Notes under the pieces: generated by a model
What the model was told of the DNA's origin: nothing
What the model saw: only the letters and a program-made list of their open reading frames with translations
Databases searched by the model: none
Assembly: GCA_002790835.1 (NCBI GenBank)
Contig: PFVX01000056.1
Span: 24,508 to 88,507 of the forward strand
From: a bacterium CG_4_9_14_3_um_filter_65_15
GTDB taxonomy: Bacteria; Krumholzibacteriota; Krumholzibacteriia; LZORAL124-64-63
Length of the DNA: 64,000 nt
Reading direction: 5' to 3'
Program-made: the position numbers and the translations under genes
Part shown: one piece after another, positions 29,088 to 64,000 of the stretch
How the letters are laid out: each line of letters begins with the position of its first letter
How positions within the stretch are numbered: the first letter of the stretch is position 1

Positions 29088-31175
29088 GTGGCAACCCCGT
29101 CCTACAGCCGTATTCGACGTACCCTGTTCCGGCTCGTGGAGCGCTTCGAGCCCGACGAGACCACCATCATGGTGGTCATCGCGGTATTGGTCGGCGTGGC
29201 CGGTGGTTTCGGAGCCATCCTGTTTCGTTGGCTGGTGAACTTCTTCCAGGGTTTCGTTCTCGGCCAGGGGGAAAGCACGGTGGAGCTTCTTTTGGCCGTG
29301 CCCTGGTGGCACAGGCTCTTGCTGCCCGTGCTGGGGGGGGTGATCGTGGGTCCGTTGGTGTATTTCGGGGCTCCGGAGGCCAAGGGCCACGGAGTCCCCG
29401 AGGTGATGAACGCCATGGTATTCAAGAAAGGCGTGATCCGGCCCATCGTCGCGGCGGTCAAGATCCTCGCCAGCGCCATCACCATCGCCTGCGGCGGTTC
29501 GGTGGGGCGGGAGGGGCCCATCGTGCAGATCGGCGCCGGCATGGCCAGCACCATCGGCCAGTGGCTGCGGTTCTCACCCCAACGCCTGCGGACGCTCATC
29601 GGCTGCGGCGCCGCCGCCGGCATCGCCGCCACCTTCAACGCTCCCATCGCCGGGGCCTTCTTCGCCCTGGAAATCCTCATGCGGGATTTCGCGTTGGTGA
29701 CCTTCAGCCCGATCATCGTCTCCAGCGTGGTGGCCACGGCCATCAGCCGCGAGTTCCTGGGGGCCAATCCCTCCTTCATGGTACCTGATTTCGCCATGGA
29801 GAGTTCTCTGGAGCTTCCCTTCTACCTGCTGCTGGGGCTTCTGGTGGGGCTGGTGGCCATGGTCTACGTGCGCACCCTCTACGCCTCCGAGGGATTCTTC
29901 GACCGGCTGCGGATTCCCTCCTGGAGCAAGCCTGCCCTGGGGGGAGTGGCCCTCGGTCTGCTTTTGATCTGGTTCCCGCAGGTTTACGGCGTGGGGTATA
30001 GCTCCATGGTCCACGCCCTCAACGGGAACATGGCCCTGGGGCTGATGGCCTTGCTGGTGGTCGTCAAGTTGGTGGCGGTGGACCTCACCCTGGGCTCGGG
30101 AGCCTCCGGCGGGATCTTCGCTCCGGCTCTGTACCTCGGGGGCATGACGGGCGGAGCCTTCGGCGCGGCCCTGCTCTTCCTCTTTCCCGGGGCCCATCAT
30201 GCGGTGGGAACTTTCGCCATGGCCGGCATGGCCGCCATGGTGGGTGCGGCCACCGGCGGGCCGCTGACGGCCATCCTCATTCTTTTCGAGATGACCGGCC
30301 AGTACCAGGTGATCCTGCCGCTGATGCTCGCGAGCATCGGCGCGGCCTTGACCTACCGCACCCTGATGGATGAGACCATCTTCACCCTGAAATTCGCCCG
30401 TCAAGGCAGACAGATCCACTTCGGCCGCGAGAGCGCCATCCTGCGCAATTTCCACGTCCAGGACATCATGGAGGTCAATCCCCATACGGTTCGCCAGGGC
30501 GATGGACTCGACCGCATTCTCAAACTCTTTTTGGACAACAAGGACGACCACTATTACGTCGTGGACGAGGCCGGAGGGCTCATCGGGCTGATTTCCATCC
30601 ACGACATCAAGGATCTGCTGCACGAGGATGGGTTGGGAAAATTCCTCATCGCCGAGGACATCCACACCCCGGCGGGGGATTTCGTGTACCGCCGTGACAA
30701 CCTCGAGGATTGCCTGCTGAAGCTCGGCAAGCTGGACCACACCGATCTGCCGGTTCTTTACAGCCCGGAAAAACCCGTGCTGGTGGGCCTGATCACGCGG
30801 CAGTCCATCTTCGAAATCTACAACCGCGAGGTGCTGCACCAGGAGGATATGGGCATCAAGCTGGTCACCGGCGAGGGTCGCATGCACGACTGCGTCGAGT
30901 TGCCGGAGCAGTACAAGGTGCAGCTCTTCGTGCCCCCGGTGGAATGGGAGGGCAGGACCCTGCAGGAGTTGGCCCTGCGGCCCCGCTACGGGATCTCGGT
31001 TCTGGCGGTCAAACAACGCAATTACCTGGGTGGTCTGGAGAATCGCATCCCGGACCCCGGGCAACCCCTGAGACCGGGGGACCGCCTGATCATCGTGGGT
31101 GAGGTTGGGGCCCTGGAACGGCTCCTTCAGGAAACCAACACTTCCTCATTTGCTCCCGGTGGGCAGGAATCGTGA
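29088..31175 (+). CDS. ClC-family chloride channel/transporter with C-terminal CBS pair and TrkA-C domain
   Basis: ClC selectivity motifs GGSVGREGP and GIFAPALYLGG, about 10 TM helices, then CBS domains and a TrkA_C-like end. GTG start. Confidence 0.8.
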   Translation: MATPSYSRIRRTLFRLVERFEPDETTIMVVIAVLVGVAGGFGAILFRWLVNFFQGFVLGQGESTVELLLAVPWWHRLLLPVLGGVIVGPLVYFGAPEAKGHGVPEVMNAMVFKKGVIRPIVAAVKILASAITIACGGSVGREGPIVQIGAGMASTIGQWLRFSPQRLRTLIGCGAAAGIAATFNAPIAGAFFALEILMRDFALVTFSPIIVSSVVATAISREFLGANPSFMVPDFAMESSLELPFYLLLGLLVGLVAMVYVRTLYASEGFFDRLRIPSWSKPALGGVALGLLLIWFPQVYGVGYSSMVHALNGNMALGLMALLVVVKLVAVDLTLGSGASGGIFAPALYLGGMTGGAFGAALLFLFPGAHHAVGTFAMAGMAAMVGAATGGPLTAILILFEMTGQYQVILPLMLASIGAALTYRTLMDETIFTLKFARQGRQIHFGRESAILRNFHVQDIMEVNPHTVRQGDGLDRILKLFLDNKDDHYYVVDEAGGLIGLISIHDIKDLLHEDGLGKFLIAEDIHTPAGDFVYRRDNLEDCLLKLGKLDHTDLPVLYSPEKPVLVGLITRQSIFEIYNREVLHQEDMGIKLVTGEGRMHDCVELPEQYKVQLFVPPVEWEGRTLQELALRPRYGISVLAVKQRNYLGGLENRIPDPGQPLRPGDRLIIVGEVGALERLLQETNTSSFAPGGQES

Positions 31176-50892: not shown

Positions 50893-51929
50893 GTCGTTTC
50901 CTTTCGCGCGAGGTTCAAGACGTCGGTCAAAGAGTCGTCGATGCTCCACTCGGGCTCCCAGCCCGTGCAGGAACGGATTTTGGTGTTGTCTCCCACCAGG
51001 ATGGGGACATCCGAGGGTCGCATGCGCGCCGCATCGGATTCCACTGTAATCGGACATTTGGCCTGGGCCAACAGGAGATCCAACCCCTGGCGGATGGTCA
51101 GGCCCTGGCCGGAGCACACATGGTACACCTCGCCGGGGGTTCCTTCCTTGATCAGGGCGCGGTAGGCGGTCACCACGTCCCGCACGTCCAGGAAGTCCCG
51201 GACCGCGTCCAGGTTGCCGACTTTCACCAGGGCCTGGCCGCTCCCGCGCTCGGCGGCGGCGATCTGCTGCGCGAAGGCGGGGAAGACGAAACGCGTGTCC
51301 TGGCCGGGACCGATGTGGCTGAAGGAGCGGGTCATGATCACGGGCAGATCGTAGGACCGGACGTACTGGCGGCCGAGCAGGGTCTGGGCGGCCTTGCTCA
51401 CCCCGTAGGGGGAGATGGGCTGGAGGGGCGTGTCTTCCCGCAGGGGATAGGCTTCGGCGGGTTGGGGCCCGTATTCCTCCGCCGAACCGATCATCAAGAC
51501 GGCCGGTCTGTCGCTGACCGGCATCCGGCGTATGGCTTCCAGGAGGTTCAGGGTGCCCAGGACGTTGGTCTGCAGGGTGGCGGCCGGCTCGCGAAAGGAG
51601 ACCGCCGCCGAGCTCTGGGCGGCCAGGTGGTAGACGGTGGCCGGTCGCAGGCGCTCCAGCACCGCGACCAAGCCGGCCGCATCGGCCAGGTCCATCTCGA
51701 TGTGGGCCACGTCGCCGTCGGGGGTGTGGAGGCAGACGGCGCCGGGAAAGCGGGGATCGTCCTCCTCGGTCCGGCCGCCGGCCAGGGGCGACGTCAGCCC
51801 CAGGCTGCACACGGGCAACCCTGCCCGTTGCAGGGAAGCGGTAAGGTGCCGGCCGACGAAGCCTCGGGCTCCGGTTACCAGGGTCCAGGGCAGGTGGGGG
51901 GAGGATGTGGGTTGGTTCACAGGCGTCAT
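50889..51929 (-). CDS. NAD-dependent nucleotide-sugar epimerase/dehydratase (SDR family)
   Basis: TGARGFVGRHL Rossmann motif and YGVSK (YxxxK). Stop/start overlaps with ugd and the CoA-binding gene (ATGA). Confidence 0.75.
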   Translation of the reverse strand: MTPVNQPTSSPHLPWTLVTGARGFVGRHLTASLQRAGLPVCSLGLTSPLAGGRTEEDDPRFPGAVCLHTPDGDVAHIEMDLADAAGLVAVLERLRPATVYHLAAQSSAAVSFREPAATLQTNVLGTLNLLEAIRRMPVSDRPAVLMIGSAEEYGPQPAEAYPLREDTPLQPISPYGVSKAAQTLLGRQYVRSYDLPVIMTRSFSHIGPGQDTRFVFPAFAQQIAAAERGSGQALVKVGNLDAVRDFLDVRDVVTAYRALIKEGTPGEVYHVCSGQGLTIRQGLDLLLAQAKCPITVESDAARMRPSDVPILVGDNTKIRSCTGWEPEWSIDDSLTDVLNLARKETT

Positions 51930-52360
51930 CCGTTCAGCAGCCGCAGCCATTCCTTGTACAGGCAACGGTCCATGACCACGTCCAGGCCCGCACGGACGGC
52001 CTTGGCCGCGGCCTCGGAGTGCATGACTCCCTCCTGCATCCAGATGACCTTGGCACCCGCGGCGATGGCATCGTCCACGATGGGGGGCACGGCCTCGCTG
52101 CGACGGAAGATATCCACCACGTCGATGGTGCCGGGAATATCCTGCAGCGTAGCATACAACGGGGCGCTCAGCACCGGTTCGGTCAGCACCGGGTTGACCC
52201 CCAGCACTTCCAGTCCGCGACCCTGCAGGAAGCGCGCAATGCCGCGGCTGGCGCGATCCTCCTTGGGAGAAATGCCGACCACCGCAACGCGCCGCATGGT
52301 CGACAGGATTTCCCTGACCCGCTCGTCCCCGGGATTCAGAACACCCTCAGTTTGACTCAT
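51926..52360 (-). CDS. CoA-binding domain protein (YccU-like)
   Basis: ...RVAVVGISPKEDRASRG...GLEVLGVNP... is the CoA_binding_2 pattern. Confidence 0.65.
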   Translation of the reverse strand: MSQTEGVLNPGDERVREILSTMRRVAVVGISPKEDRASRGIARFLQGRGLEVLGVNPVLTEPVLSAPLYATLQDIPGTIDVVDIFRRSEAVPPIVDDAIAAGAKVIWMQEGVMHSEAAAKAVRAGLDVVMDRCLYKEWLRLLNG

Positions 52361-52482
52361 GGTCCCACTTTCGCTGCAATGGTAACGCGAGGATCGATCG
52401 CGAAAATAGTCCAACTTGAGCTGGGGGTCAACCTGTCCGCTTTTGCCTCGAGACCGCAGCGGGTTCGATTTTTGCTTTCTTC

Positions 52483-52526
52483 AACCATGACCATGGTTTA
52501 GAATTAATGAATGACCATTCATTAAT
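52483..52526. promoter_or_regulatory. Two adjacent AT-rich palindromes sharing an ATG-AC-CAT core (candidate tandem operator) in the promoter/5'UTR of the Hdr-like gene
   Basis: AACCATG-ac-CATGGTT at 52483-52498 and ATTAATGAATG-ac-CATTCATTAAT at 52503-52526 (a perfect 11-bp inverted repeat). They lie about 55-100 nt upstream of the SD AAGGAG plus GTG start at 52582. Confidence 0.5.
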
Positions 52527-52581
52527 CCCGGGTACGGGGCAGTCGTTTGCCGCAATTCACGCCGGATTCGAAGGAGTAACC

Positions 52582-54591
52582 GTGAACCCCTGGTTGATGT
52601 CCCTGCTGCTCTACGTATTCCTGGCCATGTTCGCCGGGACCATCGCCGACCGTTATTGGATCCTTCGCGCCGGTGAGCCCGATATGCGTTGGGACAGGAT
52701 CGGGCTGCGGCTGCGCAACCTGCTGACCATCGGTTTCGGCCAGAAGCGCCTGCTGTATGAAAAGGCAGCGGGGCGCATGCACGTGGCGATTTTCTCGGGT
52801 TTCCTGGTTGCCCTCCTGAGAACGCTCACCCTCATCGGGCGAGGATATGACCCCCAATACCATCTCCCGTTCCTGGTCGGCCCGGTGGGCGTGGCCTACG
52901 CCTTCCTGAAGGACACGTTGACCCTGGTGGTCCTGGTGGCCGTGGGATACGCCGTCTACAGGCGTCTGGTCCTCAGGCCGCGGCGGTTGCACCTGAGCGC
53001 CGAAGCCGTGCTGATCCTGTTCTGGATTGCCACCCTGATGATCACCGACTTGATCGGGGATGCCGCCCTGTTCCGGCTGCAGCCGGACTTTCCCGAGCGC
53101 ACCGGCGCCTGGGTGGGGAACCTCCTGACGGGGATGTTTGCCGGGAGTGATCCGGCCACCGTCCGCGTGTGGTTCGAGATTATGTTCTGGGGTCATGTGA
53201 TCCTGGTGTTGGCCTTCCTGAACGTGTTGCCGTTCGGCAAGCACTTCCACGTCCTGACGGCCCTGCCTTCGGTGTTCATGGGGCGTTTGACCCCCAGCGC
53301 CGCCCTGGAGAGGATGGAGTTCGAGGGCCGTGAAACGTTCGGCGTGGGCAAGCTGGAGGATTTCAGTTGGCGGCGCATCCTGGACATGTATTCCTGCACC
53401 GAATGCGGTCGGTGCAACGATGCCTGCCCGGCCCACCTGACGGACAAGCCGCTGCGGCCGCGCGAAATCATCACCGATGCGCGCGATCAGGCCTATGAGC
53501 TTTCGGACCACCTCGTCGCCGTCGGCAAGCTCAAGGCCCAGGGCCGGGTCAAGGAGGCTGCCGAGCTGATCGCGGCGCAGGACCGGCCGGCCCTCGTCGG
53601 AGAAGTCAACAGCGAGGACGCCCTGTGGGCCTGCACCACCTGCGGTTGGTGCGTCAGCGCGTGCCCGGTGGTCATCGACCACATTCCCCACATCATCGAC
53701 CAGCGCCGCCATTTGACCATGATGGAAGCCAAGGTCCCGCCGGCCCTGCAGAACGCCCTGAAGGGCCTGGAGAACAACAGCAATCCCTGGAACGTGGGGG
53801 CGGCGGCGCGCGAGGACTGGATCGGGGACCAGCCGGTGCCGCTTTTGCGCGAGAAGGGGCGGGCCGAGTATCTGCTCTTCGTGGGGTGCGCGGGCAGCTT
53901 CGACAGCCGCAACCAGGACGTCATGCGGGCGCTGTGCACTCTCCTGGACAAGGCGCAGGTGGACTACGCCGTGCTGGGCACCGAGGAAGGCTGCTGCGGT
54001 GATCCCGCGCGGCGGGTGGGCCACGAGTACCTGTTCCAGATGCAGGCTCCGGTCAACGTCGAAACCTTCAAGAAGTACGAGGTGCGCAAGGTCGTCACCG
54101 CCTGCCCGCATTGCTTCAACACCATCGCCAACGAGTATCCCGATTTCGGGCTGCAGGACGTGGAGGTGATTCACCACGGTGAATTGTTGGCCGATCTGGT
54201 GGCCGAGGGGCGTCTCAAGGTGGGGGCCGCGGCCGCAGCCAAGGTGACCTACCACGACTCCTGTTATCTCGGGCGGCACAACGGGATCTACGAGGCGCCG
54301 CGCGAGGTTCTGTCCGCGGTCGGAGGCCTGGACCTGGTCGAGATGCCCCGCAACCGGCGCGCAGGCTTCTGCTGCGGCGCCGGCGGCGGCCGCATGTTCA
54401 TGGAGGAGGACCTGGGCACGCGCATCAATCACGCCCGCATCGCCGAGGCGGCCGCTACCGGGGCGTCGGAAGTCTGCACGGCCTGCCCGTTCTGCCTGAC
54501 CATGCTGGGCGACGCCATCAACGAAACCGATCGCTCCGAGAACCTGCGGGCCCGGGATATCGCCGAGGTCCTCCTCGAGAACCTGGAGTAG
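52582..54591 (+). CDS. Membrane-bound Fe-S oxidoreductase: NarI/DsrM-like polytopic cytochrome-b-type domain fused to HdrD/DsrK-like subunit (two 4Fe-4S motifs + two CCG domains)
   Basis: N-terminus with 5-6 TM helices. CTECGRCNDACP and CTTCGWCVSACP motifs. CCG domains FVGCAGS...CCGDP and DSCYLGRHNG...FCCGAGGG...CTACPFC. Confidence 0.75.
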   Translation: MNPWLMSLLLYVFLAMFAGTIADRYWILRAGEPDMRWDRIGLRLRNLLTIGFGQKRLLYEKAAGRMHVAIFSGFLVALLRTLTLIGRGYDPQYHLPFLVGPVGVAYAFLKDTLTLVVLVAVGYAVYRRLVLRPRRLHLSAEAVLILFWIATLMITDLIGDAALFRLQPDFPERTGAWVGNLLTGMFAGSDPATVRVWFEIMFWGHVILVLAFLNVLPFGKHFHVLTALPSVFMGRLTPSAALERMEFEGRETFGVGKLEDFSWRRILDMYSCTECGRCNDACPAHLTDKPLRPREIITDARDQAYELSDHLVAVGKLKAQGRVKEAAELIAAQDRPALVGEVNSEDALWACTTCGWCVSACPVVIDHIPHIIDQRRHLTMMEAKVPPALQNALKGLENNSNPWNVGAAAREDWIGDQPVPLLREKGRAEYLLFVGCAGSFDSRNQDVMRALCTLLDKAQVDYAVLGTEEGCCGDPARRVGHEYLFQMQAPVNVETFKKYEVRKVVTACPHCFNTIANEYPDFGLQDVEVIHHGELLADLVAEGRLKVGAAAAAKVTYHDSCYLGRHNGIYEAPREVLSAVGGLDLVEMPRNRRAGFCCGAGGGRMFMEEDLGTRINHARIAEAAATGASEVCTACPFCLTMLGDAINETDRSENLRARDIAEVLLENLE

Positions 54592-54599
54592 CGTTCGGT

Positions 54600-56957
54600 C
54601 TATTGCTTGCCGGCGCCCGTGCCCCCGATCGGGGTGCGGGTCATGCCCCAGACGGCATCCTCAAACATGGGGTCGCTCCCGTATTTTCGGAACAGGCCGA
54701 GGTCCTGGATGGCGAACCCTCGGTCTTTCGAGACACGGTAACTCGAGCTGGCGTCGCGGAACCAGCCGAAGAAGCCATGGGTATTGGGCGCCACGGGATC
54801 GGTACCCTCGGGATCGACGGAAAACGATCGCATGGTTTCGGTGGCCAGGGTTATGGCGTAGGGGTTGCCGCTGCCCCGGCCGCTGGCGATGGCCTCCTGA
54901 ACGACCTGCTGGGCCCGCTCCCTTTCTCCGAGTTCGCGATCGACATACAGGAGCATCAGCTCTTCCTCGGGGCTGAGGTCGACTCCCCAACCGGGCGCCA
55001 GCAGGCCTTGCGCTTCGGCCAACTGGCGGTGGTCGATCAAGGCCAGGGCCAGGACCGCCCGCGTCAGCGGATCCCGGTCGCGCATATAGCGATTCTGGAG
55101 GATCTCGATGCGACGTTCGGCCTCGGCGGTGTCCACGGCCAGGGAATCGGGCACCGTGAACATCTCGTCGATTTCGGCCTGGTAGCGCTCAAGCATCACT
55201 TCGGGGTTGGCTGCTTCGCCCAGCGGCGTGCCTTGGGCCACCATGGCCACCGTGGCCGAATCGACGCCGGTCTGGGCGGCGGCCTGCAGGATCAGACCGC
55301 GCAGTCGCTGGACCTCCCGGTTTTCCGAGTCCAGCGCCAGGGCTCTTTGCATGTCCGAGGTCGCGGGGCCAAGCCGGCCCGCCTGGAAGCGGAACAACCC
55401 CCGGTTGTACAACCCGGCCACATTCCAGGGATCCAGTTCCACGGCCCGGTCCATGGCTTCAAGCGCCCGTTCCTGGTGGCCAAGGCGGACGCTGGCCACC
55501 CCCAGGGAACGCCAGGCGATCGCGCTGGTGGAATCGGCCTCCACCGCCTCGGTGAGGACGGTCTCCGCCTCCGCAAATTGCTTGGACCGCAAGTTCATCA
55601 AGCCCAGAAGGAGATCGGTGATGGGATCGACCTGACCCAGGGCGGCAAAGGCGGTCCGTGCATGACCCAATTCCCTTTGGGCCGGACCAAAATCTTCGTT
55701 GATGTAGAAGATTCGGCCGCGCAGGGCCTGGCAGATGTCGGGCCGAAGGTTCCGTTGCTCAAGCAGGTCGAGTTGGTGCATGGCGCGCCCGGCGGCCTGG
55801 TCGCGTTGGGCGGGAAACAACCCTTCGGCCAGCAGGTTGATCTGCATCCCGACAAAAGTGAAAGGCGAGCCGCCGACGAAAAAGCGGGGCCCGTATGAGG
55901 TGTAGACGGGCATGTGAGCATCGGGCCAGCCCAGCACCTGGGGCGTGACGTTGTTGGCGCCGCTGGGAAAGGAGAACCGGTAGGGGTGGGTGATCATTCC
56001 CATGCTGTAATAAAGGGGCGCCTGAGAATCACCGGCGAGCTCGGCCACGAGCCCGGCGTCCTGCCAGAAACGGGAGCCGAAGGGAATCTGGGGCCGATGG
56101 GTGTAGGTGGACAGATCGCCGAATTTGGCGAGGGCGAGATTCGGCTTGCCGTCCGCCAGCAGGGCCATGGCCCGGATCCAATTGTTGGCGTAGGCTGAAG
56201 TCTGGTCCTTGAACCCGCGATACGTGAAATCGTGTTGCGGATACTTGATGGGGTCCATGCGCACGGCCAGGGAAATGGCGTCCTGGTAGCGGCCGGAATC
56301 GGCCAGGAGCAGGCCCTTGATCAGCTGCAGTTCCTGATCCCGGGGGTGGTCGGCGAGGCCCTTTTGGGCCTCTGCGAGGCCTTCGTCCCAGCGTGCCAGG
56401 TCGCGGAGGACCCAGGCGCGGTTGCGGCGGATATCCAGCAGGAGATTTTCGTCAACCTCTTGTCCATCCCCGGTCAGGGCATCGGCGGCCGCTCGGGCAT
56501 GGTCGAGGTATTGCAAAGCGCTGAGCTGGTCGCCGACTTCGGCGCTCAATTTGCCCATAGCCGCCCAGCCGGCGACATAGGTGGGGTCGATGGCGGTGGC
56601 CTCCCGCAAGTCCTGCAGGCCGTTGCCGACGCCGTACCCCCCCTGGCTCAAGAGTGGTGGGCCGTCGGGATGATACCATTGCCGCAACTGGGCGTCGGAA
56701 CTTTCCCGGACTTCCCGTTCGAAGTCTCGCCAGCCGTCGGCTTTTTCCAGGGCTTGCCGTCTCAGGGAATCCCGGCGAGCCGGCCTTGCGGCCAGATGGT
56801 CCGCGAGCGATGGCTGGAATGCATCGGCTTCCGCCCGCACATCCTGGAGCGGCGGGTTATCGGCCGGCGCAGGCGACGGGGCCGAGGCGCAACCAATGGA
56901 CTGGCAAACGGCACCGACGAGCAGCAAAGCTGCCAATGACTTCAAATGATAAACCAT
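54600..56957 (-). CDS. Large TPR-repeat protein with signal peptide (probable lipoprotein)
   Basis: N-terminal LAALLLVGAVCQSIGCAS. Many TPR-like helices across 785 aa. Confidence 0.6.
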   Translation of the reverse strand: MVYHLKSLAALLLVGAVCQSIGCASAPSPAPADNPPLQDVRAEADAFQPSLADHLAARPARRDSLRRQALEKADGWRDFEREVRESSDAQLRQWYHPDGPPLLSQGGYGVGNGLQDLREATAIDPTYVAGWAAMGKLSAEVGDQLSALQYLDHARAAADALTGDGQEVDENLLLDIRRNRAWVLRDLARWDEGLAEAQKGLADHPRDQELQLIKGLLLADSGRYQDAISLAVRMDPIKYPQHDFTYRGFKDQTSAYANNWIRAMALLADGKPNLALAKFGDLSTYTHRPQIPFGSRFWQDAGLVAELAGDSQAPLYYSMGMITHPYRFSFPSGANNVTPQVLGWPDAHMPVYTSYGPRFFVGGSPFTFVGMQINLLAEGLFPAQRDQAAGRAMHQLDLLEQRNLRPDICQALRGRIFYINEDFGPAQRELGHARTAFAALGQVDPITDLLLGLMNLRSKQFAEAETVLTEAVEADSTSAIAWRSLGVASVRLGHQERALEAMDRAVELDPWNVAGLYNRGLFRFQAGRLGPATSDMQRALALDSENREVQRLRGLILQAAAQTGVDSATVAMVAQGTPLGEAANPEVMLERYQAEIDEMFTVPDSLAVDTAEAERRIEILQNRYMRDRDPLTRAVLALALIDHRQLAEAQGLLAPGWGVDLSPEEELMLLYVDRELGERERAQQVVQEAIASGRGSGNPYAITLATETMRSFSVDPEGTDPVAPNTHGFFGWFRDASSSYRVSKDRGFAIQDLGLFRKYGSDPMFEDAVWGMTRTPIGGTGAGKQ

Positions 56958-57179
56958 GATGGGATCCTTGTCTGGCGAACAAGATTTCCGCTGCGATATT
57001 CCAAACTCCCCGTTTGAGATTACGGGAAGGAAATTGACCTGTCAATTCCCCCGGCCACCGCGACCCTTGCCATCATTGACCGTTTCTGTTATGCATTTTC
57101 CCCCTTGCAGGGCCGCTGAGGGCGGTTCATGCTCCAAATACTCAAGGAAATCATCGCAGGGATTTGCGGGGAGGATATC

Positions 57180-58223
57180 ATGAACGCCTACGAGCCGGTG
57201 CGCTCCACCGAACGCCTGGACCGGATCTGGAAGAGCGGTAAGGAATTCCTGGGCAGCGAACTGCCCGTCATGTGCGGCGCGATGACGTGGGTCAGCGACC
57301 CCCAGCTGGTCGCGCGCATGAGCAACCTGGGCGCTTTCGGGGTCCTGGCCGCGGGCAACATGCCCCCGGAGATGTGGGCCGACTATGTGGATGAGACCCG
57401 CAAGCTCACCGACCGCCCCTTTGCCGGCAACTGCATCACCATCGCGCCCAACTACCGGGCCCACCTGGACATCCTGTGTGAGAAGAGTGTGGGGCACATC
57501 GTGTTCGCGGGCTCGATCCCGCGCGCCCAGGAAGTGAAGCAGGCCAAGGACAGCGGGGCCAAGGTGCTGTGCTTCGCCTCTACCCAGTCCATTGCCAAGC
57601 GCATGCTGGACTACGGCGCCGATGCGCTCATCCTCGAGGGCAGCGAGGCCGGGGGCCACATCGGCCATGTCTCCACTACCGTCCTGCTCCAGGAGATCCT
57701 GTTCAATTTCGACCGGATTCCCGTGTTCGTGGCCGGGGGCATCGCCACCGGCAAGATGATCGCCCACCTGGTCATGATGGGGGCCGCCGGAGCCCAGATG
57801 GGCACGCGCTTCGTCATGGCCGAGGAGTGCAACGTCCACGAGAAATTCAAGAACGTGTTCAAGCGGTCGCGGGCCCGCGAGGCCATCTCCACGCCCCAGT
57901 ACAGCGTCAAGCTGCCGGTGGTGTCGGTGCGCGCCCTGAACAACCACGCCATGTCCCATTTCGGCGATCTGCAGCTGGAGCTGCTGGAGATGCTGCGCAA
58001 GGGTGAGATCAACCGCCAGGAGGCCCAGTTCAAGGTCGAGGAGTACTGGATCGGGTCGCTGCGCAAGGCGACCGTCGACGGCGACATCGAGCACGGCTCT
58101 CTCATGGCCGGGCAGTCGGTGGGGTTGTTGCGGAAGGTTCAGCCCCTGCGGGAAATCCTCGAAGAGTTGGTCGCCGAAGCCGATGCGGCCGTGGGCGACG
58201 TCGTCGCCCGGCTGAAAGGCTGA
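57180..58223 (+). CDS. NAD(P)H-dependent flavin oxidoreductase, nitronate monooxygenase (NMO/FabK-like) family
   Basis: TIM-barrel FMN motifs ...VMCGAMTWVS...EGSEAGGHIG...VAGGIATG... Confidence 0.7.
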   Translation: MNAYEPVRSTERLDRIWKSGKEFLGSELPVMCGAMTWVSDPQLVARMSNLGAFGVLAAGNMPPEMWADYVDETRKLTDRPFAGNCITIAPNYRAHLDILCEKSVGHIVFAGSIPRAQEVKQAKDSGAKVLCFASTQSIAKRMLDYGADALILEGSEAGGHIGHVSTTVLLQEILFNFDRIPVFVAGGIATGKMIAHLVMMGAAGAQMGTRFVMAEECNVHEKFKNVFKRSRAREAISTPQYSVKLPVVSVRALNNHAMSHFGDLQLELLEMLRKGEINRQEAQFKVEEYWIGSLRKATVDGDIEHGSLMAGQSVGLLRKVQPLREILEELVAEADAAVGDVVARLKG

Positions 58224-63504: not shown

Positions 63505-64000
63505 TCAACCGCGAAGCTTGATCACTTCCTCGGTCAAGGGCGGCACGATCTGGAACAGGTCGCCCACGATGCCGTAGTCGGCCGCCTTGAAGATGGGCGC
63601 GTTGGCGTCCTTGTTGATGGCGACGATGCACTTGCTGCTGCTCATGCCCGCCAGGTGCTGGATGGCCCCGCTGATCCCGCAGGCGATGTAGAGGTTGGGG
63701 CCCACGGTCTTGCCCGTCTGGCCGACCTGGTGGGAATAGTCCACCCAACCGGCATCCACGATGGCGCGGCTGGCGCCCGCGGCGGCGCCCAGGGCTGCAG
63801 CCAGCTTCTCGATCAGTTCGTAGCTCTCCGGTCCCTTGATGCCCCGCCCGCCGGAAACGACGATTTCAGCCTCGGTCAGTTCCACGTCGCCGGCCCCGAC
63901 CGCCTCGATGGACTGGACCTGGGCCTTGGGGTCCACCCCGGACAGGTCGGGCGAAAAGGCCTCGGCGGCCGCCGCGGCGGCGTTCTCCTCCAGCACGAAA
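63505..64000 (-). CDS. etfA: Electron transfer flavoprotein alpha subunit, C-terminal part (N-terminus beyond window)
   Basis: ...[28 protein letters not shown]...IVAINKD... is the EtfA FAD-binding signature. The ORF is open to the window end. Confidence 0.8.

What the first reader, a model, noticed from the sequence alone, without database searches (positions are those of the whole stretch)
52483..54591. Tandem AT-rich palindromes (shared ATG-AC-CAT core) in front of a fused NarI/DsrM-like + HdrD/DsrK-like membrane Fe-S oxidoreductase
Seen in sequence:
- AACCATGacCATGGTT and ATTAATGAATGacCATTCATTAAT are adjacent, both with 2-bp spacers and identical inner half-sites.
- They lie in a divergent promoter region about 55-100 nt upstream of an AAGGAG-GTG start.
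- The annotated ATG at 52507 lies inside the second palindrome and is probably not the start.
- The gene fuses a heme-b-type polytopic domain to two 4Fe-4S plus two CCG domains.

Inference: this is likely a dimeric-regulator operator pair, controlling a quinol-linked disulfide or other reductase. The quinone-interacting membrane domain and thiol/disulfide-type catalytic subunit are normally separate genes (HdrE/HdrD, DsrM/DsrK).
Basis: partly seen in the sequence, partly recalled or inferred. Interest (0 to 1): 0.5.

Follow-up and report, generated by a model that had tools for sequence, protein, structure and literature searches.

The report
FadR-type operator before an EtfD gene
The longer palindrome is a conserved repressor site of the kind read by the Bacillus fatty-acid regulator FadR, on the promoter of a known membrane enzyme (EtfD/EMO) that passes electrons from fatty-acid oxidation to menaquinone; the shorter palindrome is not conserved, so the finding is real but ordinary.

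Summary
Both palindromes, the AAGGAG-GTG start and the domain make-up are in the sequence as described.

**Palindrome 2 (52503-52526)** is a real operator. Its core TGAAT-N4-ATTCA occurs 26 times in 762 kb of window plus related loci. Every copy lies just upstream of an orthologue of this gene, directly after a -10-like hexamer. The 16-bp unit ATGAAT-GACC-ATTCAT has the half-site and 6-4-6 spacing that TetR-family FadR (YsiA) of Bacillus reads. Bacillus FadR represses fadF, the homologue of this gene. In 120 metagenome loci carrying the same 18-mer, 66 have a TetR regulator or a beta-oxidation/ETF gene next to it.

**Palindrome 1 (52483-52498)** fills the -35/-10 spacer. It is absent from all relatives, including syntenic ones whose palindrome 2 is identical. 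Palindromes of its size occur at chance frequency.

**The gene (52582-54591)** belongs to the known fused family EMO/EtfD/FadF, an ETF:menaquinone oxidoreductase (E=3.6e-120 to the solved M. smegmatis EtfD). An ETF-alpha fragment lies at the window end.

No regulator gene was found in the window, so FadR binding is inferred. Verdict: a new member of a known kind, of low interest.

The parts
52462..52481 (+). Conserved upstream promoter block GGTTCGATTTTTGCTTTCTT: a T-tract plus the position that aligns with the -35-like TTCACc of relatives (52476-52481, TTTCTT here)
   Evidence: 52462-52477 is invariant in the 7 closest relatives. More distant relatives have TTTTTnCTTCAC, then 17 nt, then TAnnnT. 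It is the only such element in the window. Its promoter function is inferred.
52483..52498 (.). Palindrome 1, AACCATGacCATGGTT. It occupies 16 of the 17 nt of the -35/-10 spacer. It is not conserved and is most likely a chance palindrome.
   Evidence: Present in the sequence. Absent from 55 orthologous upstream regions and from syntenic relatives at 80-83% protein identity. Palindromes of this class occur at chance frequency. Only its right arm (CATGG) overlaps a recurrent cCATGnnnTA element.
52499..52504 (+). -10-like hexamer TAGAAT
   Evidence: TAnAAT is invariant in the 7 closest relatives. A TAnnnT ends 2-3 nt before the box in nearly all box-bearing loci. Its function is inferred.
52503..52526 (.). 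Palindrome 2 (24 bp). It contains the 16-bp FadR-type inverted repeat ATGAAT-GACC-ATTCAT (52507-52522) and the conserved core TGAAT-N4-ATTCA (52508-52521). It is the predicted repressor operator and covers the expected transcription start.
   Evidence: Searches show conservation. Searches give the Bacillus halodurans FadR half-site ATGA(A/G)T and its 16-bp inverted repeats. Searches show that the same 18-mer flanks TetR and beta-oxidation genes in metagenomes.
52571..52584 (+). Ribosome-binding site AAGGAG (52571-52576) and GTG start (52582-52584)
   Evidence: Invariant GAAGGAG ... GTGAA in relatives. Most homologues are 664-671 aa.
52582..54591 (+). EMO/EtfD/FadF-family gene, 669 aa. Five transmembrane helices with His67, His205 and His223. 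Two [4Fe-4S] motifs (C272-C282, C351-C361). Two CCG domains (C436, C471-C472, C508/H510/C511; C561, C597-C598, C635/C638).
   Evidence: PDB 9ojn_A (M. smegmatis EtfD) matches at E=3.6e-120 across both the membrane and soluble parts. Pfam finds CCG x2 and Fer4.
51926..52360 (-). Divergent neighbour: a CoA-binding-domain protein (144 aa from ATG 52360). It shares the intergenic region but is not part of the regulated unit.
   Evidence: Pfam CoA_binding_2, E=1.9e-35. Conserved as the divergent neighbour in relatives. A sigma-70-like site on the minus strand lies at 52431-52403.
63505..64000 (-). C-terminal half of the ETF alpha subunit (gene cut by the window end), the presumed electron donor of the EtfD-type enzyme
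   Evidence: Pfam ETF_alpha, E=1.2e-37. Syntenic relatives carry etfB-etfA at this place.

Best explanation
The gene at 52582-54591 encodes a single-polypeptide ETF:menaquinone oxidoreductase of the EMO/EtfD/FadF family.

**Enzyme.** By homology, it takes electrons from reduced electron-transfer flavoprotein, which is loaded by acyl-CoA dehydrogenases. It passes them through two CCG-domain clusters, two cubane [4Fe-4S] clusters and heme b to menaquinone.

**Promoter and operator.** The promoter has a conserved T-rich/-35 block (52462-52481), a 17-nt spacer and TAGAAT (52499-52504). It is followed at once by one 16-bp inverted repeat, ATGAAT-GACC-ATTCAT (52507-52522, inside the 24-bp palindrome 2), which covers the expected transcription start.

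**Regulation (inferred).**
- This repeat is an operator of the type read by TetR-family FadR (YsiA) regulators.
- A FadR-like dimer encoded elsewhere in the genome would sit on it and block transcription.
- Long-chain acyl-CoA would release it, so the enzyme is made when fatty acids are being oxidised.

**Palindrome 1 (52483-52498).** It is the non-conserved promoter spacer of this one lineage, not a second operator.

**Shown:** sequence conservation, motif identity with the Bacillus operator, the association of the motif with TetR and beta-oxidation genes elsewhere, and homology of the enzyme.

**Inferred:** who binds, repression, the effector, the transcription start and the enzyme activity.
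For: **Enzyme**
- Full-length match to solved M. smegmatis EtfD 9ojn_A, E=3.6e-120.
- The heme ligands His78 and His241 of EtfD align with His67 and His223 here. The third conserved EMO histidine is His205.
- All Fe-S cysteines of EtfD are present.
- Scores for DsrK, TmcB, HmcF, TfrB and GlpC are far below the NCBIfam cut-offs.
- An ETF-alpha fragment lies at the window end, and etfBA lies 4-9 kb downstream in four relatives.

**Operator**
- TGAAT-N4-ATTCA occurs 26 times in 762 kb. All copies are upstream of orthologues: 24 of 55 Krumholzibacteriia loci, one Acidobacteriota locus and the window.
- The position is fixed, 2-3 nt after a TAnnnT.
- The 24-mer is identical in relative L201, and the box core and its flanks are invariant across the 7 closest relatives, while the spacer and leader diverge.

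**Type of operator**
- In B. halodurans FadR each monomer reads ATGA(A/G)T and each dimer reads a 16-bp inverted repeat (PMC5397183).
- B. subtilis FadR represses fadF, the EtfD homologue (PMC5397183; PMC13083937).

**Regulon evidence**
- 120 metagenome loci carry AATGAATGNNCATTCATT.
- 35 have a TetR gene beside the site. Of 32 complete ones scanned, 16 have the YsiA-like C-domain PF08359.
- 31 have an acyl-CoA synthetase, FadB/enoyl-CoA hydratase, acyl-CoA dehydrogenase, ETF-beta, ETF-QO or an EtfD-like gene beside it.
- The union is 66 of 120 loci.
- One such TetR (L128) matches B. halodurans and B. subtilis FadR structures at E=6e-40 and 7e-38, and keeps all seven DNA-contact residues.

**Palindrome 1**.
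Against: - No TetR gene lies in the 64-kb window, nor within 4-10 kb of the orthologues. I could not show that this genome, or any Krumholzibacteriia genome, encodes a YsiA-type FadR.
- The same 18-mer also sits beside TetR proteins with other C-terminal domains (TetR_C_6, TetR_C_10, HI_0893 type).
- The Bacillus fadR operator carries two overlapping repeats bound by two dimers. Here there is one centred repeat.
- The etfBA genes of relatives have no full box, and 31 of 55 orthologous promoters lack the box. The regulon, if any, is small and not universal in the class.
- The core TGAAT-N4-ATTCA is also the core of ArgR boxes.
- The promoter and transcription start are predicted, not mapped. 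The -35 position in the window is weak (TTTCTT).
Confidence: 0.68

Rival explanations
1. Palindrome 2 is an operator, but it is read by a regulator other than a YsiA-type FadR. Candidates are a TetR of another subfamily that shares the ATGAAT half-site, responding to a different acyl-CoA or metabolite, or an unrelated dimeric repressor.
For: - Half of the TetR genes found beside the same 18-mer have non-YsiA C-terminal domains.
- Four loci pair such a TetR with a class-III aminotransferase rather than a fatty-acid gene.
- No regulator gene could be tied to this genome.
Against: - The regulated gene is the homologue of B. subtilis fadF, a proven FadR target.
- Where the neighbour of the box is an enzyme, it is mostly a beta-oxidation or ETF-chain enzyme.
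- Five further distant EtfD-like genes carry the same box.
Confidence: 0.17
2. One reading: the two adjacent palindromes form an operator pair for one dimeric regulator that recognises the shared ATG-AC-CAT core.
For: - Both palindromes are perfect, have 2-nt centres, share ATGACCAT and lie 24 bp apart centre to centre.
- Palindrome 1 fills the -35/-10 spacer, a classic repressor position.
- A second palindrome of arm 7 or more within a few nt of the first is expected only about 3% of the time, estimated from the rate.
Against: - Palindrome 1 is absent from all 55 orthologous upstream regions. It is absent even where the 24-bp palindrome 2 is identical (L201), and the spacer is unconserved among the 7 closest relatives.
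- Its half-site AACCAT matches ATGAAT at 3 of 6 positions and lacks the G that FadR contacts.
- The shared centre GACC is variable in orthologous boxes.
- Its class of palindrome is at chance frequency in the window.
Confidence: 0.05
3. Palindrome 2 is an ARG box bound by an ArgR/AhrC-type hexamer. The established consensus is wnTGAATwwwwATTCAnw (from my knowledge of the E. coli and Bacillus literature, not checked in a paper here).
For: The conserved core TGAAT-N4-ATTCA is identical to the ARG-box core.
Against: - The four central positions are G/A, G/A, C/T and C (C in 24 of 26 sites), not A/T-rich.
- There is a single box, not a pair 2-3 bp apart.
- The target is not an arginine gene.
- Neighbours of the 18-mer in metagenomes are TetR and fatty-acid genes. 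No arginine-pathway or ArgR family appears among the 25 commonest families. That scan required G and C at the inner positions, which biases against ARG boxes.
Confidence: 0.03
4. Palindrome 1 is a lineage-specific operator for a second, unknown regulator that this one species acquired on top of the FadR-type control.
For: It is a perfect 7+7 palindrome exactly in the promoter spacer. It is not explained by any conserved element except its right arm.
Against: There is no conservation at all and no second copy in the window with up to 3 mismatches except chance-level hits. Frequency is at chance level.
Confidence: 0.07

Closest known systems
FadR (YsiA) boxes of the Bacillus fatty-acid degradation regulon (TetR family; B. 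subtilis, B. halodurans)
   Same: - The half-site is ATGA(A/G)T and the geometry is a 16-bp inverted repeat, 6-4-6.
- The target includes the EtfD homologue fadF.
- The operator sits on the promoter.
- TetR genes beside identical boxes elsewhere are close to the Bacillus FadR structures and keep their DNA-contact residues.
   Different: - Here there is one perfectly symmetric, centred repeat. The fadR operator in the B. halodurans FadR-DNA crystal structure has two repeats offset by 4 bp and bound by two dimers.
- The host is Krumholzibacteriia, not Firmicutes.
- The regulator gene was not found.
- Only this gene, not etfBA, carries the box in the neighbourhood.
EtfD of Mycobacterium smegmatis/tuberculosis (PDB 9OJN; PMC13083937)
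   Same: - Same fused architecture: five transmembrane helices with heme b, two cubane clusters and two CCG domains.
- E=3.6e-120.
- The heme His ligands, all cluster cysteines and the CPHC histidine are kept.
   Different: - There is no long disordered C-terminal tail (669 aa against 1042 aa).
- The first CCG domain has Cys-Cys (C471-C472) where EtfD has Cys-Thr. A non-cubane [4Fe-4S] cluster is therefore expected rather than the linear [3Fe-4S] cluster (inference).
EMO of Syntrophus aciditrophicus (ETF:methylmenaquinone oxidoreductase; bioRxiv 10.64898/2026.08.18.745454)
   Same: - Same family.
- The three histidines said to be conserved across EMO membrane domains are present (H67, H205, H223).
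- CC motifs are complete in both CCG domains.
   Different: The number of hemes (one, two or three) and the direction or energy coupling cannot be read from the sequence. No direct alignment with SaEMO was made here.
HdrDE and DsrMK
   Same: They are homologous modules: a NarI-like cytochrome b plus an HdrD/DsrK-type Fe-S/CCG protein.
   Different: - Those are two polypeptides with a catalytic thiol/disulfide site.
- This protein is fused. It scores far below the DsrK cut-off (70 against 400 bits) and the TfrB cut-off (171 against 385 bits).
- It carries the EtfD-type histidine that completes cluster D2.
ARG box of ArgR/AhrC
   Same: The core is TGAAT-N4-ATTCA.
   Different: The centre is G/C-containing, the box is single and the gene context is fatty-acid metabolism.

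Membership tests
EMO/EtfD/FadF (ETF:menaquinone oxidoreductase) | [quoted passage not shown] | tested here: met
   Five hydrophobic segments within residues 4-218. Pfam finds CCG x2 and Fer4. The match to 9ojn_A covers residues 27-311 and 340-668.
EMO/EtfD/FadF (ETF:menaquinone oxidoreductase) | Histidine ligands of the proximal heme b (Ms His78/His241; Sa His87/His251) and the third conserved histidine (Ms His223; Sa His233) | tested here: met
   The alignment places His67 and His223 of this protein on His78 and His241. WGH(205)V aligns with MGH of EtfD.
EMO/EtfD/FadF (ETF:menaquinone oxidoreductase) | Cysteine ligands of clusters D1-D4, and the histidine of the CPHC motif that makes D2 non-catalytic | tested here: met
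   C272/275/278/282, C351/354/357/361, C436, C471, C508, H510, C511, C561, C597, C598, C635 and C638. There is an extra Cys472 where EtfD has Thr539.
EMO/EtfD/FadF (ETF:menaquinone oxidoreductase) | ETF (etfAB) in the same genome as electron donor | tested here: met
   An ETF-alpha fragment lies at 63505-64000. etfB-etfA lies at the syntenic place in four relatives.
EMO/EtfD/FadF (ETF:menaquinone oxidoreductase) | ETF-dependent reduction of (methyl)menaquinone; requirement for growth on fatty acids | not testable with these tools
   This needs biochemistry or genetics.
FadR (YsiA-type TetR) operator | Half-site ATGA(A/G)T arranged as a 16-bp inverted repeat (6-4-6) | tested here: met
   ATGAAT-GACC-ATTCAT at 52507-52522, compared with PMC5397183.
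FadR (YsiA-type TetR) operator | Located on the promoter of a fatty-acid degradation gene and conserved in orthologous promoters | tested here: met
   26 of 26 core sites are upstream of orthologues, 2-3 nt after a -10-like hexamer. The promoter itself is predicted only.
FadR (YsiA-type TetR) operator | The same motif marks other beta-oxidation genes and the regulator's own gene (regulon, autoregulation) | tested here: inconclusive
   This holds in metagenome loci of other organisms, where 66 of 120 loci qualify. No second site occurs in this window or in 10-22 kb loci of relatives.
FadR (YsiA-type TetR) operator | A cognate YsiA-like TetR regulator (PF08359) encoded in the same genome | not tested
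   None occurs in the window or near the orthologues.
FadR (YsiA-type TetR) operator | Two overlapping repeats bound by a dimer of dimers, as in the B. halodurans fadR operator | tested here: not met
   There is a single centred repeat. The repeats offset by 4 bp have half-sites ATTAAT and ATGGTC only. This describes one crystallised operator and may not define the family.
FadR (YsiA-type TetR) operator | Binding relieved by long-chain acyl-CoA | not testable with these tools
   This needs a gel shift with and without acyl-CoA.
   The protein is a single polypeptide. DsrK scores 70 bits against a cut-off of 400, TmcB 70 against 735, HmcF 51 against 750 and TfrB 171 against 385.
ARG box (ArgR/AhrC) | 18-bp box with an A/T-rich centre, usually in pairs 2-3 bp apart, in front of arginine genes | tested here: not met
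   The centre is G/A, G/A, C/T, C. The box is single. The gene context is unrelated.

The most novel reading that the evidence does not exclude
The Bacillus-type FadR operator (ATGAAT-N4-ATTCAT) and its link to the ETF-to-quinone step are conserved almost unchanged across very distant phyla: Firmicutes, Acidobacteriota (Vicinamibacterales) and Krumholzibacteriota. It sits in front of EtfD-type and also ETF-QO-type genes. If so, the 16-bp box would be a cross-phylum marker of beta-oxidation regulons. In this class it would gate only the membrane exit of electrons (EtfD, and in most relatives a co-directional FabK-like gene), not ETF itself.
Probability: 0.5. Interest if true: 0.35.

Novelty: new member of a known kind. 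Interest (0 to 1): 0.22.

Why it matters
It replaces a vague '(Fe-S)-binding protein' annotation in an uncultured phylum with a testable function: ETF:menaquinone oxidoreductase induced by fatty acids. It corrects the start codon used in at least one public gene call. It also suggests that a regulator-operator pair characterised only in Bacillus can be used to predict fatty-acid regulons in Acidobacteriota and Krumholzibacteriota. None of this changes what is known about the enzyme family or about TetR operators.

Tried and rejected
- **Palindrome 1 as a degenerate FadR box.** Rejected: the half-site matches at 3 of 6 positions and lacks the contacted G, and there is no conservation.
- **Other copies in the window.** With up to 3 mismatches, only chance-level hits appear for either palindrome. 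The half-site and the shared 8-mer are not enriched.
- **TetR genes in the window.** I scanned seven ORFs of TetR-like size (183-224 aa) plus three others by Pfam, and ran tblastn with 17 box-adjacent TetR proteins against the window and 80 loci. None was found.
- **A Krumholzibacteriia FadR via a protein search.** Starting from a box-adjacent TetR (L128), the search returned only its own clade, Vicinamibacterales.
- **Krumholzibacteriia-style promoters among the 120 metagenome loci.** None was found.
- **The etfBA promoters of relatives.** There is no full box, only a CATTCATT half-site beside the -35 in L204.
- **A leader RNA element.** There is no Rfam match at E up to 1 in 52300-52700. The box lies at the predicted start, so a full hairpin would not be transcribed.
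- **A sigma-54 reading of GG-N10-GC in GGTTCGATTTTTGC.** This is kept in the 7 closest relatives but lost in the wider class, where TTGC becomes TTCC or TTCT, so I did not pursue it.
- **Rex box (TTGTGAA-N4-TTCACAA, recalled from memory).** Rejected on spacing and flanks.
- **Tojo et al. 2011 for the B. subtilis fadF box sequence.** The paper is not held.
- **Structure prediction.** Not run, because sequence homology to a solved structure already covers the whole protein.
Full report
**What is in the sequence**

The intergenic region 52361-52581 separates a minus-strand CoA-binding-domain gene (51926-52360) from a plus-strand gene. The plus-strand gene has an in-frame ATG at 52507 and a GTG at 52582, the latter preceded by AAGGAG (52571-52576). 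AACCATGacCATGGTT lies at 52483-52498. ATTAATGAATGacCATTCATTAAT lies at 52503-52526. The repeat finder reports the second as 11-nt arms, 100% complementary, with a 2-nt gap, and reports the shared ATGACCAT 24 nt apart.

**Are the palindromes more than chance?**

Perfect palindromes with arms of at least 7 and a spacer of at most 4 occur 29 times in the window, against 30.5 +/- 7 in composition-preserving shuffles. Palindrome 1 is one of these ordinary cases. Palindrome 2, with arm 11, is the longest in the window. Neither palindrome has a near-copy elsewhere in the window. The half-site ATGAATG is not frequent: 4 against 6.5 expected, two of them in the box.

**Orthologous promoters**

A scan of one genome per species returned 80 loci encoding relatives. 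About 55 of them are from Candidatus Krumholzibacteriia at 55-83% identity and have the upstream region intact.
- The core TGAAT-N4-ATTCA occurs 26 times in the 762 kb of window plus loci.
- Every occurrence is just upstream of an orthologue: 24 Krumholzibacteriia loci, one Acidobacteriota locus at 44% identity, and the window.
- The box always starts 2-3 nt after a TAnnnT hexamer.
- That hexamer lies 17 nt downstream of a TTCACc-like hexamer preceded by a T-tract.
- In the seven closest relatives the block GGTTCGATTTTTGCTT, the hexamer TAnAAT, the box and the GAAGGAG-GTG start are invariant, while the spacer and the leader are not.
- The syntenic relative L201 (80% protein identity) has exactly the same 24-bp palindrome 2 and an unrelated spacer.

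Palindrome 1 occupies 16 of the 17 spacer positions. It has no counterpart in any relative, and only its right arm overlaps a recurrent cCATGnnnTA element. The central four bases of the box vary (GACC, GGTC, GGCC, AGTC, AGCC and others), so the 'shared ATG-AC-CAT core' is a coincidence of this one sequence.

**Start codon**

Homologues are mostly 664-671 aa and align from residue 1 of the GTG-initiated protein. The distance from box to start ranges from 26 to 101 nt in steps that are not multiples of three. The ribosome-binding site is invariant.

**What kind of operator?**

[quoted passage not shown] Each monomer reads ATGA(A/G)T and each dimer reads a 16-bp inverted repeat (PMC5397183). The window has ATGAAT-GACC-ATTCAT at 52507-52522, with the same half-site and the same 6-4-6 spacing.

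B. subtilis FadR represses five operons, one of which starts with fadF, and is released by long-chain acyl-CoA (PMC5397183, PMC4525379). FadF is stated to be the EtfD homologue (PMC13083937).

To test the link independently, I scanned metagenome contigs for AATGAATGNNCATTCATT. I called the nearest ORF on each side, clustered them, and labelled the clusters with Pfam.

| Neighbour of the 18-mer | Loci |
|---|---|
| TetR-family gene | 35 |
| FadB-like 3-hydroxyacyl-CoA dehydrogenase / enoyl-CoA hydratase | 11 |
| Acyl-CoA synthetase | 8 |
| Acyl-CoA dehydrogenase | 6 |
| EtfD-like gene (31-38% identical to the window protein) | 5 |
| ETF beta | 3 |
| ETF-QO | 2 |
| Any of the above (union) | 66 of 120 |

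Of 32 complete TetR proteins, 16 carry the YsiA-like C-terminal domain PF08359. One of them (L128) matches the B. halodurans and B. subtilis FadR structures at E=6e-40 and 7e-38. It keeps the seven DNA-contacting residues named in the structure paper. Its close relatives are labelled Vicinamibacterales and 'fatty acid metabolism transcriptional regulator'.

The motif is therefore the operator of a fatty-acid degradation regulon in several phyla, and the box in the window is best read as a member of it.

**Limits of that reading**

- I found no TetR gene in the window or within 4-10 kb of the orthologues. I had no way to search the rest of these genomes.
- Half of the box-adjacent TetR proteins belong to other C-domain subfamilies, and four pair with a class-III aminotransferase. 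The half-site is therefore shared by more than one TetR lineage.
- The box here is a single centred repeat, unlike the double repeat of the crystallised Bacillus operator.
- The core is also that of ArgR boxes, but the centre is not A/T-rich (C in 24 of 26 sites at the fourth central position), the box is single, and the context is not arginine metabolism.
- There is no Rfam family in the region.

**The gene**

The 669-aa product matches the cryo-EM structure of M. smegmatis EtfD (9ojn_A) at E=3.6e-120, over both the membrane part (residues 27-311) and the soluble part (340-668).
- The EtfD paper names His78 and His241 as heme b ligands and lists the cysteines of four Fe-S clusters. In the alignment these fall on His67, His223 and conserved cysteines of the window protein.
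- A 2026 preprint on the Syntrophus enzyme (EMO) says three histidines are conserved across the family. The third is His205 here.
- The first CCG domain has Cys471-Cys472 where mycobacterial EtfD has Cys-Thr. It probably holds a non-cubane [4Fe-4S] cluster, as in Hdr and Syntrophus EMO, rather than the linear [3Fe-4S] cluster (inference).
- The CPHC histidine that makes cluster D2 non-catalytic in EtfD is present (His510).
- NCBIfam scores for DsrK, TmcB, HmcF, TfrB and GlpC are far below their cut-offs.
- The fused architecture is common: 1885 proteins with E of 1e-20 or better among the 8000 candidates scored, and nearly all of the 120 best listed are about 660-720 aa.

**Genomic context**

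The window has no beta-oxidation genes. Its right end (63505-64000, minus strand) encodes the C-terminal half of ETF alpha. Four relatives with the same gene order carry etfB-etfA 4-9 kb downstream of the EtfD gene. The presumed electron donor is therefore a conserved neighbour, though without a box of its own.

**Mechanism proposed**

A FadR-like TetR dimer binds 52507-52522, directly after the -10 hexamer and over the expected start near 52510-52513. It blocks transcription until long-chain acyl-CoA opens the dimer; the structure paper reports recognition helices 38 A apart on DNA and 49 A with ligand. The enzyme then carries electrons from ETF through the Fe-S relay and heme b to menaquinone. 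The conservation, the motif match, the regulon association and the enzyme homology are shown. Binding, repression, the effector, the start site and the activity are inferred.

**Verdict**

It is wrong about the pair and about the rarity and likely chemistry of the fused enzyme. This is a new member of two known kinds, a FadR-type box and an EMO/EtfD gene, in an uncultured phylum. Interest is low to modest.

Noticed in passing
window 57129-58223 (+); loci L001-L073 about 100-170 nt downstream of the EtfD orthologue: A FabK-like NMO-family gene follows the EtfD orthologue on the same strand in 52 loci, at 66-92% identity, so the two may form an operon under the box. Its best PDB match is enoyl-ACP reductase FabK 7l00 (E=2e-57); the NCBIfam FabK score of 241 bits is below the cut-off of 453. 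In the window and several relatives (L003, L004, L023, L032, L045, L069, L201, L203) a convergent TPR gene (54600-56957) has been inserted between them.
   Followed up: partly
window 63505-64000 (-): This is the C-terminal half of ETF alpha, cut by the window end. Syntenic relatives have etfB-etfA there, without a full FadR-type box. L204 has only a CCATTCATT half-site abutting a TTGACG -35.
   Followed up: partly
window 52462-52504; upstream regions of L002-L069: The promoters of the EtfD orthologue share an unusual fixed layout (T-tract, CTTCAC, 17 nt containing cCATG three nt before TAnnnT), even in the 31 loci without the box. The pattern TTTTTNCTT-N16-24-TANNNT occurs only once in the 64-kb window. 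The meaning of the CATG element is unknown. In the closest clade the block also reads GG-N10-GC like a sigma-54 site, but this is lost in the wider class.
   Followed up: partly
L180 about 27-80 (metagenome contig Ga-type, GC 0.59): An EtfD-like gene (38% identical) is preceded by two FadR-type boxes 36 bp apart centre to centre (AATGAATGACCATTCATT and TGAATAGTCATTCA). This is a genuine tandem arrangement, unlike the one in the window.
   Followed up: no
L115, L157, L165, L169: The same 18-mer, extended to ATGAATGAATGATCATTCATTCAT, lies between a TetR gene in the cluster that includes non-YsiA C-domain types and a divergent class-III aminotransferase. This suggests that a second TetR lineage uses the same half-site for another pathway.
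   Followed up: no
L117, L147: The canonical ETF-QO (Pfam ETFQO_UQ-bd and Fer4_ETF_QO), which is not homologous to EtfD, is also preceded by the same box. The two analogous ETF:quinone enzymes sit under the same type of operator in different organisms.
   Followed up: no
window 52507-52581; protein P0001: A public (JGI) gene call of 694 aa starts at ATG 52507, inside the operator. Orthologue alignment supports GTG 52582 (669 aa).
   Followed up: yes
window protein residues 471-472 (about 53992-53997): The first CCG domain keeps the Cys-Cys pair that mycobacterial EtfD has replaced by Cys-Thr. A non-cubane [4Fe-4S] cluster is therefore expected there, rather than the linear [3Fe-4S] cluster.
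   Followed up: partly
window 29159-29177: GACCACCATCATGGTGGTC is a perfect palindrome (arms of 9, 1-nt centre), the second longest in the window. It lies inside the ClC chloride-channel gene (29088-31175).
   Followed up: no
window 52403-52462 (-): A sigma-70-like site (TTGACC, 17 nt, TATTTT) for the divergent CoA-binding gene lies at 52431-52403. A weak overlapping palindrome, CCGCTTTTGCCTCGAG/CTCGAGACCGCAGCGG, lies at 52437-52462.
   Followed up: no
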